Below the pieces are notes generated by a model. The model was not told where the DNA came from, did no database searches, and saw only the letters and a program-made list of their open reading frames with translations. Below, piece after piece: positions 4 through 4,458 of a stretch of 5,475 nucleotides of DNA. Source of the DNA: Enterobacteria phage ID204 Moscow/ID. A program made the position numbers and the translations under genes. The first letter of the stretch is position 1; the number at the start of each line of letters is the position of its first letter. The stretch lies in the sequence record KC237308; one strand, written 5' to 3'.

Positions 4-33
4 TTGACACAACCATAACTACATATCTATTAT
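4..33 (+). promoter_or_regulatory. Candidate sigma70 promoter for gene A (pA): -35 TTGACA at 4..9, 18-nt spacer, -10 TATTAT at 28..33
   Basis: Seen in sequence: exact TTGACA hexamer and a 5/6 match to TATAAT with 18-nt spacing. From memory, phiX174 has a TTGACA in the equivalent H-A intergenic position. The -10 assignment is inference; CTATTA at 27..32 with a 17-nt spacer is an alternative. Confidence 0.45.
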
Positions 34-34
34 G

Positions 35-59
35 CCTCCAAATCATCGGAGGCTTTCTT
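35..59 (+). promoter_or_regulatory. Stem-loop CCTCC (35..39) / GGAGG (48..52) with an 8-nt loop, followed by a pyrimidine-rich tract CTTTCTT; it sequesters the gene A Shine-Dalgarno and may be the readthrough terminator after H
   Basis: Seen in sequence: perfect 5-bp inverted repeat whose 3' arm is the GGAGG Shine-Dalgarno 9 nt upstream of the ATG at 62. From memory, phiX174 has the same arrangement (CCTCCAAATCTTGGAGGCTTTTTT before the A start). The regulatory or terminator role is inference. Confidence 0.4.
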
Positions 60-61
60 AC

Positions 62-1723
62 ATGCAACAAGCTAGTGACTTCTACAACAAACCACATATC
101 GACGCTATAAAACCACTCGTTGAAACCGCTGGTATGTCTGTGCTCTCTCAATCTCCAAACCTCCGTATCTGGAAACAGGTAAATTCTCGCATCAAACTTC
201 TGGAAGAAATTCTCGCTCATTACACCAATGGTATACGCCGTGACGACAACGGCGACTTCTGGATGAATCCTAACTCTCAACTCGCAACTACAATTGCCTA
301 TCGTGCCCATCAAAAAGGACACAATCCAAAACTTATTCAATACCCTGATACATTCACTCTGGATGACATTATCCGTAAAAAGCCATTACCACAAAACGCC
401 CCTGACGAATTAAAACTCTCCGATGAAATCGGGGAAGACTATCGCCTTACAATCATCTCTCTAATCGAAGAAATGCAAGAAATCTACGACGTGCTCGGAC
501 AACTTGATATTAATAACACTATAGACCACAAACCTATCGGTAACGCCCACTGGAATCTACTCTATGAAAAACCTGTCTATAAACACTGGTATGAACTGGT
601 ATCAAAACGACCCCTTAAATCAATCAGAGACGACTACAACTATGCAAAGGCTAAGGGTATCAAAGATGAGTGCTCGAAAATCCTTGAGGAATCTACTATG
701 AAATCACGTAGGGGCTTTACCGTTCAAAGATTAATGAATGCTATGCGTACCGCTCACACTGAGGGCTGGTATGTTGTATTCGATACTCTTACTCTAGCCG
801 ATGACCGCTTAAAGGACTTCTATGATAACCCCAATGCTCTTCGTGACTACTTTCGTGATATTGGTCGCATGGTTCTCACTGCCGAGGGTCGTTCTGTGCA
901 TGATTCATCTGCGGACTGCTATCAGTACTTTTGTGTGCCTGAGTATGGCACCCAGCACGGCCGTCTACATTTTCACGCAGTGCACCTTATGCGCACACTT
1001 CCTCTGGGTTCTATCGACCCTAACTTTGGTAAGCTGGTGCGTACTAATCGGCAAATAAATAGCTTGCAAAACACATGGCCTTATGGTTACTCTATGCCCA
1101 TCGCGGTTAGATACTCCCAAGATGCGTTCTCACGCGCTGGCTGGCTCTGGCCTGTTGATACAAAGGGTGAACCCCTTAAAGCTACCTCGTATATGGCTGT
1201 CGGCTTCTACGTCGCTAAATACGTTAACAAAAAATCAGATATTGACATGGCCTCTAAAGGTCTAGGGAATAAAGAATGGAACAATTCACTCAAAACCAAA
1301 ATCAACCTGTTGCCCAAGAAAATCTTTCGCATCAGAATGTCCCGCAACTTCGGAATGAAGCTCCAGTCAATGAGTCACCTCTCAGCGGAAACACTCATTC
1401 AACTGACCCAAGTGGGTTACGACGTGACCCCGTTCAACAACATCTTGAAGCAGAACGCCAAGAAAGAGCTCAGATTGAGGCTGGCAAAGAAATCTGTCGC
1501 CGACGTTTTGGAGGCGCAACCTGTGACGACCAATCTGCTAAAATTCATGCGCAATTTGACCCGTCAAATCGGAGTGTCCAGCCTACAGAGTTTTATCGCT
1601 TCAATGACAACGAAATTAACAAGTATGGATATTTCTGATGAAACCAAAAACTACGTTGATACTTCAGGAATTGCTTCTACTCACTTACGAATTAAATCGA
1701 AGTGGACTGCTGGCGGAAAATGA
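62..1723 (+). CDS. A: Replication initiation protein A (HUH rolling-circle endonuclease), 553 aa
   Basis: The translation aligns along its whole length with phiX174 gpA as I recall it (for example the C-terminal block ...KSKWTAGGK). The HUH motif HFHAVH is encoded at 968..985 and the active-site tyrosines of YVAKYVNKK at 1208..1210 and 1220..1222. I chose the ATG at 62 because it follows GGAGG (48..52) at 9-nt spacing and matches the position of the phiX174 A start. The ORF track's ATG at 32 is in frame but has no Shine-Dalgarno and lies inside the predicted -10 element. Stop TGA at 1721..1723. Confidence 0.93.
500..529 (+). other. Viral (+) strand origin of rolling-circle replication, 30-nt core recognised and nicked by protein A; predicted nick between G506 and A507
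   Basis: Seen in sequence: CAACTTGATATTAATAACACTATAGACCAC, which matches the phiX174 origin 30-mer as I recall it. It lies inside gene A, encoding ...[10 protein letters not shown]..., as in phiX174. The nick position is taken from established knowledge of phiX174 gpA cleavage. Confidence 0.85.
698..1723 (+). CDS. A*: Protein A* (N-terminally truncated A, from an internal in-frame start), 341 aa
   Basis: In-frame ATG at 698 (MKSRRGF...) preceded by GAGGA at 686..690 with 7-nt spacing. Position and length (341 aa) match the phiX174 A* start as I recall it. Whether this start is used is inference by homology. Confidence 0.75.
1276..1638 (+). CDS. B: Internal scaffolding protein B, 120 aa, overprinted inside gene A in an alternate frame
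   Basis: ORF-track translation MEQFTQNQ...[15 protein letters not shown]...[16 protein letters not shown] aligns with phiX174 gpB (120 aa) as I recall it. A purine-rich AGGGA lies at 1264..1268 upstream of the ATG. Stop TGA at 1636..1638. Confidence 0.92.
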
Positions 1724-2512: not shown

Positions 2513-2534
2513 AGGGGCTTCGGCCCCTCTATTT
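2513..2534 (+). terminator. J-F intergenic hairpin AGGGGC-UUCG-GCCCCU (2513..2528) followed by CTATTT; candidate partial terminator and mRNA-stabilising element
   Basis: Seen in sequence: perfect 6-bp G/C-rich stem closing a UUCG tetraloop, immediately after the J stop. The same GGGGCTTCGGCCCC element is present after J in phiX174 as I recall it. Terminator function is from established knowledge of phiX174, not tested here. Confidence 0.6.
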
Positions 2535-2545
2535 AAGGATATAAA

Positions 2546-3829
2546 ATGTCTAACGTTCAAACTTCCGCTGACCGCATTCCTAACGACCTTTCTCACCTCG
2601 TCTTCGAGGCTGGCAAAATCGGTCGTTTAAAAACTATCTCTTGGACTCCAGTTGTCGCTGGCGACTCATTTGAAACTGAAATGGTAGGCGCTATTCGCCT
2701 TTCCCCACTTCGTCGCGGCCTTGCCGTCGACTCTCGTGTGGATATCTTCTCTTTCTATATCCCGCACCGCCATATCTACGGACAACAATTTATTGACTTC
2801 ATGAAAGCTGGCGTTAATGCCGCTCCTCTTGCTCCGGTTACCTGCTCCTCTGGCTGGGATTCTGCTGCCTATCTTGGCACTATTCCATCCTCAAACCTCA
2901 AGGTTCCTAAATTCTTACATCAAGGATACCTTAATATTTACAACAACTACTTTAAGCCACCGTGGGATGCTGACCTTACTTACGCTAACCCATCTAATAT
3001 GCCTGAACAGGATTATAAATGGGGCGTTTGTGTCGCTAACTTAAAATCTATCTGGACTGCCCCCTTACCTCCTAACTCTAAAACATCAGAGACTATGACC
3101 ACTGGTGCTACGTCTATTGATATTATGGGCCTGCAAGCTGCTTATGCTAAATTGCACACCCAACAAGAACGTGACTACTTCATGACTCGTTACCGCGATA
3201 TTATGAAAGACTTCGGAGGTCACACCTCCTATGACGGCGATAACCGTCCTCTTCTGCTTATGCGCTCTGAATTCTGGGCCTCTGGCTATGACGTCGACGG
3301 TACTGACCAAACCTCTTTAGGTCAGTTCTCCGGTCGCGTCCAACAAACATTCAATCACAAGGTACCTCGCTTTTATGTACCTGAACACGGCGTTATCATG
3401 ACTCTCGCCGTTACTCGCTTCCCTCCGACTCATGAAATGGAGATGCACTATCTTGTCGGCAAGGAATCTTTAACCTATACCGACCTCGCTTGCGACCCTG
3501 CTCTTATGGCTAACCTTCCTCCGCGCGAAGTATCCCTTAAGGAATTCTTCCACTCCTCGCCGGACTCTGCTAAGTTCAAAATTGCCGAAGGCCAATGGTA
3601 TCGTACGCAGCCTGACCGCGTCGCATTCCCCTACAACGCACTTGACGGCTTCCCTTTCTACTCTGCTCTGCCGTCTACTGACTTAAAACAACGTGTCCTA
3701 GTTAACACTGATAACTACGACGAAATCTTTCAGTCTATGCAACTCGCACACTGGAATATGCAAACTAAATTTAATACTACCGTCTATAGACATATGCCTA
3801 CGACTCGTGATTCAATCATGACGTCATAA
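2546..3829 (+). CDS. F: Major capsid protein F, 427 aa
   Basis: Translation aligns along its whole length with phiX174 gpF as I recall it (MSN.QT...DLSHL...PLRRGLA.DS.VDIF.FY.PHRH.YG...QGYLNIYNNYFK.PW...TSIDIMGLQAAYA.LHT.QERDYFM.RY...LPTTRDSIMTS), and the length is identical at 427 aa. AAGGA at 2535..2539 lies 6 nt upstream. Confidence 0.97.
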   Translation: MSNVQTSADRIPNDLSHLVFEAGKIGRLKTISWTPVVAGDSFETEMVGAIRLSPLRRGLAVDSRVDIFSFYIPHRHIYGQQFIDFMKAGVNAAPLAPVTCSSGWDSAAYLGTIPSSNLKVPKFLHQGYLNIYNNYFKPPWDADLTYANPSNMPEQDYKWGVCVANLKSIWTAPLPPNSKTSETMTTGATSIDIMGLQAAYAKLHTQQERDYFMTRYRDIMKDFGGHTSYDGDNRPLLLMRSEFWASGYDVDGTDQTSLGQFSGRVQQTFNHKVPRFYVPEHGVIMTLAVTRFPPTHEMEMHYLVGKESLTYTDLACDPALMANLPPREVSLKEFFHSSPDSAKFKIAEGQWYRTQPDRVAFPYNALDGFPFYSALPSTDLKQRVLVNTDNYDEIFQSMQLAHWNMQTKFNTTVYRHMPTTRDSIMTS

Positions 3830-3840
3830 AGCCTATAACG

Positions 3841-3878
3841 TGACAGGGGGAAAAATTTTAATTTTTCGCCCCCTGTCA
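3841..3878 (+). other. Long imperfect hairpin in the F-G intergenic region (arms TGACAGGGGG / CCCCCTGTCA with an internal AAAAATT / AATTTTT sub-stem); candidate terminator and complementary-strand priming or primosome-assembly site
   Basis: Seen in sequence: 10-bp outer stem 3841..3850 with 3869..3878, plus an inner 7-bp A/T stem and a CG bulge. The phiX174 F-G intergenic region has a homologous hairpin around the same AAAAATTTTAATTTTT core as I recall it. The function is inferred from phiX174/G4 knowledge. Confidence 0.55.
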
Positions 3879-3927
3879 GGTTGAACAAGCGCAAGCGCGT
3901 TAGCTACTTAACTTAAGGACTACTACT

Positions 3928-4458
3928 ATGTTTCAATCTTACGTCTCTAATCACACTTCACCTCAAACTAATACAACTATCTCCGGCTCTAAAACCCCTG
4001 CCGCTCTGGCTCCTATTTTATCTACGCCAGAGCTTAGCAGGGCTACTTTAGCCGGAACTATTACTACTACTGCGTTAGCTTCATACGCTGGTCTAGCACA
4101 TATTGTGCGCATTGACCACACTAACGCTACTAATCATCAATTACTAACTATCGCAACCTCTCTCGCGTCTGCCTCGCCTATTACTGCGATGGCTGTACGC
4201 TTCGAGGTTGCTTCGGGTACGGTTCCTACCGCTATCCCTTCTACAGCTACTTACTATCCAATTCAAAATATCATCTCCGGTACCTTCTTATCTGTCCGAG
4301 ATGCCGTTACTATCGAGACTATTCCAACCACTTCGTCAAATGACGTCTATGCTGGTGTCTTTATCTTCTCTAATGCATGGGTTGCTGGCCCTGTCTCTGG
4401 CGTTATCTCTGTCAATCAGGTAAACCGTGAGGTTTCTGTACTCCAACCTCTTAAATAA
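3928..4458 (+). CDS. G: Major spike protein G, 176 aa
   Basis: Translation MFQSY.S...VRFE..S..VPT..P....YYP......G.F..V.D.VTI...P.......VY.G.......WV.......SVNQV..E...LQPLK aligns with phiX174 gpG (175 aa) at the conserved positions I recall. AAGGA at 3915..3919 lies 8 nt upstream. Stop TAA at 4456..4458. Confidence 0.93.
   Translation: MFQSYVSNHTSPQTNTTISGSKTPAALAPILSTPELSRATLAGTITTTALASYAGLAHIVRIDHTNATNHQLLTIATSLASASPITAMAVRFEVASGTVPTAIPSTATYYPIQNIISGTFLSVRDAVTIETIPTTSSNDVYAGVFIFSNAWVAGPVSGVISVNQVNREVSVLQPLK

What the first reader, a model, noticed from the sequence alone, without database searches (positions are those of the whole stretch)
3830..3927. F-G intergenic region: long composite hairpin plus GCGCAAGCGCG element, candidate complementary-strand origin
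The only sizeable non-coding region (98 nt) contains a 38-nt imperfect hairpin (3841..3878) with a G/C outer stem and an A/T inner stem, followed by AACAAGCGCAAGCGCGTTAGC (3885..3905). In phiX174 the primosome assembly site, and in G4 the primase-recognised complementary-strand origin, are reported in the F-G intergenic region. The conserved AAAAATTTTAATTTTT core suggests the same role here. It may also act as the post-F terminator.
Basis: partly seen in the sequence, partly recalled or inferred. Interest (0 to 1): 0.45.

Follow-up and report, generated by a model that had tools for sequence, protein, structure and literature searches.

The report
PhiX-type primosome site in G4-like phage
The non-coding stretch between the coat and spike genes of this small single-stranded DNA phage holds a hairpin plus a conserved flanking motif that matches the site where phage phiX174 recruits the host PriA priming machinery, so it is very probably the start signal for copying the incoming strand: a known kind of element, found here in a phage whose best-known relative, G4, uses a different start signal.

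Summary
The F-G intergenic region (3830-3927) holds the most stable ssDNA hairpin of the genome (3837-3882). It is followed by GTTGAACAAGCGCAAGCGCGTTAG (3880-3903).

The window is a complete ID2-like Gequatrovirus genome. Its intergenic core is homologous to phiX174 nt 2305-2371, which is the T_F hairpin, the complementary-strand origin and the PriA binding site. It is not homologous to the G4 primase-only origin, which is absent from the window.

Eight of 19 stem pairs show compensatory changes among phage lineages.

A covariance model built only from non-Bullavirinae relatives finds the window element at 55 bits (E about 1e-13), on the + strand only. Those relatives are plasmids, P2-like prophages, an inovirus and another microvirus. 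The model also finds the phiX174 site, and finds nothing in G4, ID11, ID12, alpha3 or St-1.

Best reading: a PriA-dependent primosome assembly site on the packaged strand, possibly doubling as a weak post-F terminator, although it has no U-tract.

It is a new member of a known kind. Three further points:
- The origin type (PriA site or G4-type) is a swappable cassette within the subfamily.
- The core is 100% identical to Lille-type phages despite about 60% identical flanks.
- The two-module signature recurs across unrelated replicons that have an ssDNA stage.

The parts
3830..3927 (+). F-G intergenic region (98 nt) between the F stop codon (3827-3829) and the G start codon (3928-3930)
   Evidence: ORF list. 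The ID2 annotation has the same layout.
3833..3907 (+). Full extent of the two-module element as delimited by the family covariance model
   Evidence: Model R1 was built from 19 non-Bullavirinae members. It scores 55.4 bits, E about 1e-13, and this is the only full-length hit in the window. On the minus strand only the hairpin part scores (14.6 bits, E 0.03).
3837..3882 (+). Module 1: a 46-nt hairpin closed by AAC/GTT, which is invariant in every member collected. It has a G.G mismatch (3840/3879), a 10-bp G/C-rich stem, a 6-bp A/T stem and the loop TTTA.
   Evidence: Folds; inverted repeat I1. Covariation among phage lineages: 8 of 19 pairs changed on both sides, 97% of cells paired. Family-wide: 16 of 21 pairs changed on both sides.
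3851..3866 (+). A/T apex AAAAATTTTAATTTTT, identical to phiX174 2322-2337
   Evidence: alignments A1 and A3.
3867..3868 (+). CG bulge on the 3' arm. In phage Lilleto a matching GC on the 5' arm makes the stem perfect.
3880..3903 (+). Module 2: the sequence-conserved 3' flank GTTGAACAAGCGCAAGCGCGTTAG. It can form a mini-hairpin (3888-3901). It is the homologue of phiX174 2353-2373.
   Evidence: Nearly invariant across phiX-, ID18-, ID2- and Lille-type phages. It recurs in plasmids and prophages. The phiX174 counterpart holds 16 detrimental point mutations in a saturation mutagenesis preprint.
3915..3919 (+). AAGGA, the likely ribosome-binding site of gene G, 8 nt before the ATG. It is not part of the origin element.
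   Evidence: Read from the sequence; inference.

Best explanation
The element is a phiX174-type primosome assembly site, that is, a PriA-dependent origin of complementary-strand synthesis. It is carried on the packaged (+) strand of an ID2-like, G4-group microvirus.

Inferred mechanism:
1. When the circular ssDNA enters the cell, SSB coats it except for the very stable hairpin 3837-3882.
2. PriA recognises this hairpin together with the conserved 3' flank 3880-3903.
3. PriB and DnaT join, and DnaC loads DnaB.
4. DnaG primes, and Pol III holoenzyme converts the strand to the duplex replicative form.

What is shown here: the anatomy, homology to the experimentally defined phiX174 site, maintenance of the hairpin by compensatory change, membership of a wider family of such signals, presence on the + strand only, and absence of the alternative G4-type origin.

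What is inferred: PriA binding and every downstream step.

In mRNA the same hairpin may act as a weak terminator or a 3'-end stabiliser after gene F, as its phiX174 homologue is annotated. I hold this more loosely.
For: (1) Homology. The IGR core matches phiX174 2305-2371 at 77% over 70 nt. The flanking F and G sequences are only 60% and 49% identical.

(2) The phiX174 counterpart is described as the T_F hairpin that overlaps the complementary-strand origin and binds PriA (5' stem 2308-2326). It is followed by a mutation-sensitive short hairpin at 2353-2373 (bioRxiv 10.64898/2026.07.25.740675). The F-G region of phiX174 is cited as the primosome binding site in PMC3606162. The site is described as a fork-like hairpin at which PriA, PriB, PriC and DnaT load DnaB in PMC5778457.

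(3) Structure. It is the most stable ssDNA fold of the genome. Eight of 19 stem pairs carry compensatory changes among three phage lineages, with 97% of cells paired against 32-47% when the partner columns are slid.

(4) Independent family test. A covariance model built only from plasmid, prophage, inovirus and non-Bullavirinae microvirus copies hits window 3833-3907 on the + strand at 55.4 bits. It hits phiX174 2304-2375 at 50 bits. It finds nothing in G4, ID11, ID12, alpha3 or St-1.

(5) No G4-type origin. The G4 F-G cassette matches G4, ID11 and ID12, and the G-H region of alpha3 and St-1, but no PAS-type genome, and the reverse also holds.

(6) Context of relatives. The element sits on the Rep- or gene-sense strand in the other rolling-circle phages examined. 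In plasmids it sits next to an origin or oriT. These are places where a lagging- or complementary-strand start is needed.
Against: There is no biochemical or genetic evidence for this phage or for ID2.

The classic papers that map the phiX174 site could not be read here (Shlomai & Kornberg 1980; Arai & Kornberg 1981). The phiX174 coordinates therefore rest on a 2026 preprint, a 2013 paper and my memory of a 44-nt hairpin within a 55-nt protected fragment.

The phage-only covariation rests on only three effectively independent lineages.

In the phiX174 mutagenesis, many 5'-stem mutations increase fitness. The full stem is therefore not simply optimal for function.

The apparent invariance of module 2 across the wider family is partly by construction, because several scans required that motif.
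Confidence: 0.8

Rival explanations
1. It is a G4-type origin. The folded region would be recognised directly by DnaG primase on SSB-coated DNA, with no need for PriA, PriB, DnaT, DnaB or DnaC.
For: The genome belongs to the G4 genus. In G4 the origin lies in this same F-G gap. The G4 origin mechanism is summarised in PMC6783573.
Against: The window has no similarity to the 136-nt G4 cassette, at E<=1 and word size 7 (alignment A2). The window IGR folds into one long hairpin plus a small one, not three stem-loops with a 3' CTG start. It is instead homologous to the phiX174 site.
Confidence: 0.03
2. It acts only at the RNA level, as the post-F terminator (T_F) or as a 3'-end stabiliser that sets the F:G mRNA ratio. 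Priming would occur elsewhere or non-specifically.
For: The homologous phiX174 hairpin is annotated as T_F, and T_J, T_F and T_G each block 20-40% of transcription. As RNA the window IGR folds at -33 kcal/mol (z -4.1).
Against: Neither hairpin is followed by a T-run, and the consensus scan does not call it a terminator. Relatives sit at plasmid origins and next to oriT, in settings that are not the ends of operons. Module 2 is conserved as sequence rather than as structure. Only one strand gives a full model match. The phiX174 site is an experimentally used PriA site.
Confidence: 0.1
3. It is an RNA-polymerase-primed origin of the M13/Ff or F-plasmid Frpo kind, in which a long hairpin imitates a promoter on ssDNA.
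For: The hairpin is long and has an A/T-rich apex. One family member lies in an inovirus-like contig (L194).
Against: The element is homologous to the phiX174 site, whose conversion needs the primosome proteins. No promoter-like hexamers were called in the IGR. I did not compare it directly with the M13 origin.
Confidence: 0.04

Closest known systems
phiX174 primosome assembly site (n'/PriA recognition site, ori(-), overlapping terminator T_F), phiX174 nt about 2305-2373
   Same: It lies in the same F-G gap, on the same strand, with the same two-module anatomy. The A/T apex (16 nt) is identical and the closing AAC/GTT is identical. Module 2 differs at 3 positions. Overall identity is 77% over 70 nt.
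   Different: The G/C part of the stem is entirely different in sequence (GGGGG/CCCCC against GCGG/CCGC), but it still pairs, and the phiX174 GA/GA internal loop is fully paired here. The window has a CG bulge and one extra C in module 2. The 15-20 nt upstream of the hairpin in phiX174 are missing. The T-run that follows module 2 in phiX174 (GGTTTTCT) is absent.
G4 origin of complementary-strand synthesis (G4oric)
   Same: It occupies the same genomic slot (the F-G gap) in phages of the same genus, and presumably does the same job, starting the complementary strand.
   Different: The sequence is unrelated and the fold is different: three stem-loops in 136 nt, primed by primase and SSB alone. 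Homologues of the G4 cassette lie in the G-H gap of alpha3 and St-1.
Plasmid single-strand initiation signals of the phiX174 type (n'-pas; ssiA/ssiB of ColE1-type plasmids)
   Same: ColA and a Leclercia Mob plasmid carry the same AAC-hairpin-GTT plus GGACAAGCCGCAGGCGCGTCAG arrangement, about 80 nt from the ColE1-type nick sequence. ColE1 itself gives a 27.5-bit model hit between bom and rop. RepE and IncFII plasmids carry the element beside their replication genes. ColE1 plasmids are described as having PriA-dependent ssiA and ssiB sites (PMC3167613).
   Different: The plasmid stems are G/C-richer, and in ColE1 the hairpin is differently built. That the ColE1 hit equals the mapped ssiB / L-strand factor Y site rests on my memory, not on a source I could read.

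Membership tests
phiX174-type primosome assembly site (PriA-dependent ori(-)) | Lies on the strand that is single-stranded at infection (the packaged + strand), in non-coding DNA | tested here: met
   The element is at 3833-3907 on the + strand, between F and G. All genes are on the + strand. That the gene-sense strand is the packaged strand in Microviridae is established knowledge.
phiX174-type primosome assembly site (PriA-dependent ori(-)) | Sequence homology to the experimentally defined phiX174 site | tested here: met
   77% over 70 nt to phiX174 2305-2371. E is 2e-9 in a 13-genome search and 2e-5 to 3e-4 in the 2.3-Gb phage collection for unmodified phiX174-type records (4e-9 for a deletion isolate).
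phiX174-type primosome assembly site (PriA-dependent ori(-)) | A hairpin of about 44 nt, stable enough to persist on SSB-coated DNA | tested here: met
   A 46-nt hairpin. The IGR folds at -20 kcal/mol as DNA (z -4.4), the best 60-nt fold in the genome. Persistence under SSB was not tested.
phiX174-type primosome assembly site (PriA-dependent ori(-)) | Hairpin maintained by selection (compensatory substitutions) | tested here: met
   Phages: 8 of 19 pairs changed on both sides, 97% paired. Wider family: 16 of 21 pairs, 92.7% paired against 35-46% for slid controls.
phiX174-type primosome assembly site (PriA-dependent ori(-)) | Recognised by a family model that also recognises the phiX174 site | tested here: met
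   Model R1, built with no Bullavirinae sequence: window 55.4 bits, phiX174 50 bits, no hit in G4-type genomes.
phiX174-type primosome assembly site (PriA-dependent ori(-)) | Binds PriA and stimulates its ATPase; conversion of ssDNA to duplex requires PriA, PriB, DnaT, DnaB/DnaC and DnaG | not testable with these tools
   Needs biochemistry or host genetics.
G4-type primase-dependent origin | Homology to the G4 F-G cassette (G4 isolate OR492646 nt 3841-3976) | tested here: not met
   No match anywhere in the window. Alignment A2 shows no shared blocks.
G4-type primase-dependent origin | Three stem-loops with the CTG primer start 3' of them | tested here: not met
   The window IGR folds into one long hairpin plus a 3-4 bp hairpin, whereas the G4 IGR folds into three. 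The feature is described in PMC6783573.
Rho-independent terminator (T_F) | G/C-rich stem-loop followed directly by a U-tract | tested here: not met
   The stem is present, but no T-run follows 3882 or 3905. It is not among the three terminator-like sites found.
Rho-independent terminator (T_F) | Drop in transcript level across the element in vivo | not testable with these tools
   Known only for phiX174, where T_J, T_F and T_G each block 20-40%.

The most novel reading that the evidence does not exclude
The window element is one copy of a sequence-conserved, two-module single-strand initiation signal: an AAC-closed hairpin of about 45 nt followed by GTTGRMCAAGC..GCGCGKYAG.

This signal would move horizontally between unrelated replicons that pass through an ssDNA stage. 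These include Bullavirinae, other Microviridae, inovirus-like elements, P2-like prophages, and ColE1-like, IncF and RepE plasmids.

Within Bullavirinae it would be exchanged as a cassette against the G4-type origin, so that dependence on PriA would be a swappable trait even within one genus.

The nearly invariant 3' module would then be a sequence-specific recognition determinant for a primosome component. The current view of PriA as a structure-only reader does not account for that.
Probability: 0.3. Interest if true: 0.6.

Novelty: new member of a known kind. Interest (0 to 1): 0.38.

Why it matters
For this phage the result is mostly tidy annotation. It identifies the probable complementary-strand origin and predicts dependence on the host PriA/PriB/DnaT restart proteins. 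That differs from G4, the reference member of the genus, and can be tested by plating on mutant hosts.

More broadly, the comparison shows three things:
- The two classic solutions to starting the complementary strand are mutually exclusive cassettes occupying intergenic slots in Bullavirinae.
- The PriA-type cassette has probably been exchanged recently: its core is 100% identical between genomes whose flanks are about 60% identical.
- The same signature occurs in plasmids, P2-like prophages and other ssDNA phages.

If the conserved 3' module proves to be a recognition determinant, this family gives a ready-made comparative data set for an old open question: what PriA, or the preprimosome, actually reads in a primosome assembly site.

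Tried and rejected
Literature that could not be read:
- Rokyta 2006, Shlomai & Kornberg 1980, Arai & Kornberg 1981, van der Avoort 1984 and Szymanski 2011 are not held. I therefore cannot say whether the phiX-like IGR of ID2 and ID18 has been noted in print.
- Searches for a published consensus of these sites found nothing relevant.

Searches that led nowhere:
- Rfam: nothing relevant, only a chance 21-bit snoRNA match elsewhere in the window.
- Per-nucleotide phiX174 fitness table: my numeric search terms matched only atom numbers in structure files, and none occurred in the stored, truncated part of the table. Abandoned.
- Pattern AAATTTTAATTT..GGTTGA in viral contigs: swamped by chance A/T-rich matches.
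- Metagenome scan for module 2: 29 hits, of which only 2 are real (one Lille-like, one ID18-like). The rest are chance matches in G/C-rich contigs with no hairpin.
- Genome scan: 3 of 7 hits were chance. Viral-contig scan: 7 of the 31 new loci were chance.

Readings rejected:
- G4-type origin: rejected for lack of any homology.
- Consensus intrinsic terminator: rejected for lack of a T-run.
- The minus-strand ORF 3784-3894 (36 aa, TTG start) was treated as spurious.

Not done: a search for homologues of the divergent G protein, as outside the finding.

Full report
**What the window is.** The 5475 bases are a complete Bullavirinae genome of the G4 group (genus Gequatrovirus). It is 96% identical to phage ID2 Moscow/ID/2001 over 91% of its length. 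The gene order is A, A*, B, K, C, D, E, J, F, G, H, all on the + strand. F ends at 3829 and G starts at 3928. The finding therefore covers exactly the 98-nt F-G intergenic region (IGR), which is the longest non-coding stretch.

**The observation.**
It extends to 3837-3882 through an AAC/GTT closing helix across a G.G mismatch, with a CG bulge at 3867-3868.
- As ssDNA the IGR folds at -20 kcal/mol, against -9.4 +/- 2.4 for dinucleotide shuffles (z -4.4).
- In a 60-nt sliding scan it is the most stable fold of the whole genome (-16.6; mean -4.1, sd 2.6).
- The second element is at 3884-3904, one base left of the coordinates given.
- The AAAAATTTTAATTTTT apex (3851-3866) is identical to phiX174 2322-2337.

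**Which known origin it resembles.**
- A sensitive blastn of 3800-3960 against 50,697 phage records matched phiX174-type genomes at 2255-2371. G4-type genomes matched only over the last bases of gene F.
- A controlled comparison of 13 genomes was clear-cut. The window IGR matches phiX174 2305-2371 (77% over 70 nt), ID18 and WA14 (78%), ID2 and FL76 (98%) and the Danish phages Lilledu and Lilleto (96-98%).
- The 136-nt G4 cassette matches only G4, ID11 and ID12 in the F-G gap, and alpha3 and St-1 in their G-H gap (75-79%).
- No genome has both cassettes.
- The G4 cassette is present in 365 phage records, all G4-type.

**What the phiX174 counterpart is.**
- A 2026 saturation-mutagenesis preprint describes the phiX174 hairpin, with its 5' stem at 2308-2326, as terminator T_F overlapping the origin of the complementary strand and as a PriA binding site.
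- The same preprint describes a shorter hairpin at 2353-2373 carrying 16 detrimental mutations spread over both stems.
- PMC3606162 places the primosome binding site in the F-G region.
- PMC5778457 describes it as a fork-like hairpin on which PriA, PriB, PriC and DnaT load DnaB onto SSB-coated DNA.
- Window 3837-3882 aligns with phiX174 2308-2351. Window 3884-3904 aligns with phiX174 2353-2373.

**Is the hairpin under selection?**
- Within each lineage the element hardly varies, so the phage comparison has in effect three independent states: phiX-type, ID18-type and ID2/Lille-type.
- Between them, 8 of the 19 stem pairs have changes on both sides, and 97% of cells pair. Sliding the partner columns drops pairing to 32-47%.
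- Module 2 is conserved as sequence, with almost no covariation.
- The IGR core is more conserved between the window and phiX174 (75%) than the adjacent coding DNA (60% for the end of F, 49% for G).

**A wider family.** A blastn of the window element against plasmids gave unexpected hits: 77-80% over 60-70 nt, best E 6e-7.
- *Erwiniaceae plasmids.* Four plasmids carry it, always between the divergent parA/parB genes and repE. The anatomy is the same, and the stems are perfect 21-bp helices that differ from one another by compensatory changes.
- *Other plasmids.* The same arrangement occurs in many Pantoea and other Enterobacterales plasmids. It occurs in ColA and in a small Leclercia Mob plasmid about 80 nt from the ColE1-type nick sequence. 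It occurs about 1.1 kb downstream of repA1 in an IncFII plasmid. ColE1 itself has a looser version between bom and rop.
- *P2-like prophages.* It lies downstream of replication gene A and on that gene's sense strand. This version or close relatives occur in 95 of 5426 complete E. coli genomes.
- *Other ssDNA phages.* It occurs in two non-Bullavirinae Microviridae contigs, an inovirus-like contig, and a Pectobacterium contig with inovirus-type gII and gV genes that holds two copies in opposite orientation.
- *Strand.* In the rolling-circle phages where the strand can be judged, the element is on the gene-sense strand. The exception is the two-copy Pectobacterium contig.

**Cross-validation.**
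- I aligned 19 non-Bullavirinae copies. Sixteen of the 21 hairpin pairs have changes on both sides, and 92.7% of cells pair, against 35-46% when the partner columns are slid.
- I built a covariance model from these 19 copies alone.
- With filters off, over 83.8 kb, the model finds window 3833-3907 on the + strand at 55.4 bits (E about 1e-13). This is the only full-length hit in the window. The minus strand scores only for the hairpin (14.6 bits).
- It finds phiX174 2304-2375 at 50 bits, ID18 at 66.5 bits and ColE1 at 27.5 bits.
- It finds nothing in G4, ID11, ID12, alpha3 or St-1.
- This is a membership test that does not depend on any phage of the subfamily.

**Mechanism.** The best reading is a PriA-type primosome assembly site.
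1. SSB coats the incoming strand but leaves the hairpin free.
2. PriA recognises the hairpin together with the 3' module.
3. PriB and DnaT join, and DnaC loads DnaB.
4. DnaG primes, and Pol III completes the duplex.

Only the anatomy, homology, selection on the structure, strandedness and absence of the alternative origin are shown here. The protein steps are carried over from phiX174.

The terminator idea survives only by homology. No T-run follows either hairpin, and the consensus scan does not call it. In phiX174 a TTTTCT run follows module 2.

**Evolutionary setting.**
- On F, H and A* protein trees, the clade with the G4-type origin in the F-G gap (G4, ID11, ID12) is nested among lineages that carry the PriA-type site: phiX174, Lille-type, ID18-type and ID2-type.
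- The simplest reading is that the PriA-type site is the older occupant of this slot, and that the G4 crown group replaced it with a cassette related to the one in the alpha3 G-H gap.
- The window IGR core (3830-3905) is 100% identical to Lilledu and Lilleto, apart from a 2-nt insertion in Lilleto. Their flanks are 62% (end of F) and 56% (G) identical. The much closer relative ID18 differs at 26% of core positions. This pattern points to recent horizontal exchange of the cassette.
- I could not check whether any of this is in the literature.

**Caveats.**
- Several collection scans required the module-2 motif, so its invariance among those hits is partly by construction. The blast-derived hits, and the hairpin found at a fixed distance from the motif, are independent of that requirement.
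- The identity of the ColE1 hit with the mapped second primosome site rests on position, on PMC3167613 and on my memory.
- The phage-only covariation has three independent data points.

**Verdict.** The finding is a real, well-supported, ordinary-in-kind element: the PriA-type complementary-strand origin of an ID2-like phage. Its interest comes from the origin-cassette swap within the genus and from the breadth of the two-module family.

Noticed in passing
window 3906-4458: Gene G (major spike protein) is unlike that of any phage in the collection. The best nucleotide match is 67% (ID18/WA14). It is 51% identical in nucleotides and 41% in protein to ID2. The rest of the genome is 96-100% identical to ID2. 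The left edge of the divergent block lies immediately after the origin element (about 3906) and the right edge at the G-H junction (about 4450). This looks like a recombinant or novel spike allele.
   Followed up: partly
window 3830-3905 versus L005 3755-3830 and L009 3762-3839: The IGR core is 100% identical to the unclassified Danish phages Lilledu and Lilleto. Their genomes are only 74% identical overall, and 62% and 56% identical in the flanks. This looks like recent horizontal exchange of the origin cassette.
   Followed up: partly
L003 3841-3976, L007, L008 (F-G gap); L011 4960-5094, L012 (G-H gap): The G4-type origin cassette and the PriA-type cassette are mutually exclusive among the 13 Bullavirinae genomes compared. 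The G4-type cassette sits in a different intergenic slot in alpha3 and St-1. On F, H and A* protein trees, the clade with the G4-type origin in the F-G gap is nested among PriA-type lineages.
   Followed up: yes
L169 2998-3071, L170 2990-3064, L171, L172 (Erwiniaceae plasmids): A homologous two-module element lies in the roughly 520-nt gap between the divergent parA/parB genes and repE. It has perfect 21-bp stems that differ between plasmids by compensatory changes.
   Followed up: yes
L180 (ColA) about 6640-6720 minus strand; L181 2457-2530; L183 (ColE1) 1529-1608 minus strand; L182 2955-3029: The element, or in ColE1 a looser version, lies next to the ColE1-type nick sequence GTATACTGGCTTA in Mob plasmids, and about 1.1 kb downstream of repA1 in an IncFII plasmid.
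   Followed up: partly
L190 3779-3851; L215 20000-20072 (E. coli K_EC180 chromosome): P2-like prophages carry the element about 2 kb downstream of the end of replication gene A, on that gene's sense strand, beside an ogr/Delta-like gene. In all, 95 of 5426 complete E. coli genomes hold this version or relatives, at 85 chromosomal and 60 plasmid places.
   Followed up: partly
L207 4142-4191 (-), L212 252-314 (-), L194 5392-5466 (+), L175 5080-5151 (-) and 5677-5748 (+): Versions of the element occur in two non-Bullavirinae Microviridae contigs (F capsid proteins of 530-571 aa) and in an inovirus-like contig with a secretin gene. In these three it lies on the gene-sense strand. A Pectobacterium contig with inovirus-type gII and gV genes has two copies in opposite orientation.
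   Followed up: partly
L178 906-997 (Volucribacter psittacicida chromosome contig): Module 2 follows a different hairpin and a T-run in a Pasteurellaceae chromosome. The family model scores it at 50 bits. The context was not examined.
   Followed up: no
L166 (phiX174 isolate CMMhiMhi, AF299308): This phiX174 isolate has a 15-nt deletion in the IGR that ends just before the TAACG that opens the hairpin, leaving the two-module element intact.
   Followed up: no
window 4-53: A near-consensus promoter (TTGACA, 18 nt, TATTAT; 11 of 12 matches) is followed directly by a G/C hairpin and a T-run at 34-53. These overlap the first possible start of gene A. This resembles the overlapping pA/T_H arrangement described for phiX174.
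   Followed up: no
window 32 versus 62: The longest A reading frame starts at ATG 32 (563 aa), whereas the ID2 annotation starts A at 62. The H-A gap is therefore 31 or 61 nt.
   Followed up: no
window 2513-2528: The hairpin AGGGGCTTCGGCCCCT in the J-F gap is the likely counterpart of the phiX174 post-J terminator.
   Followed up: no
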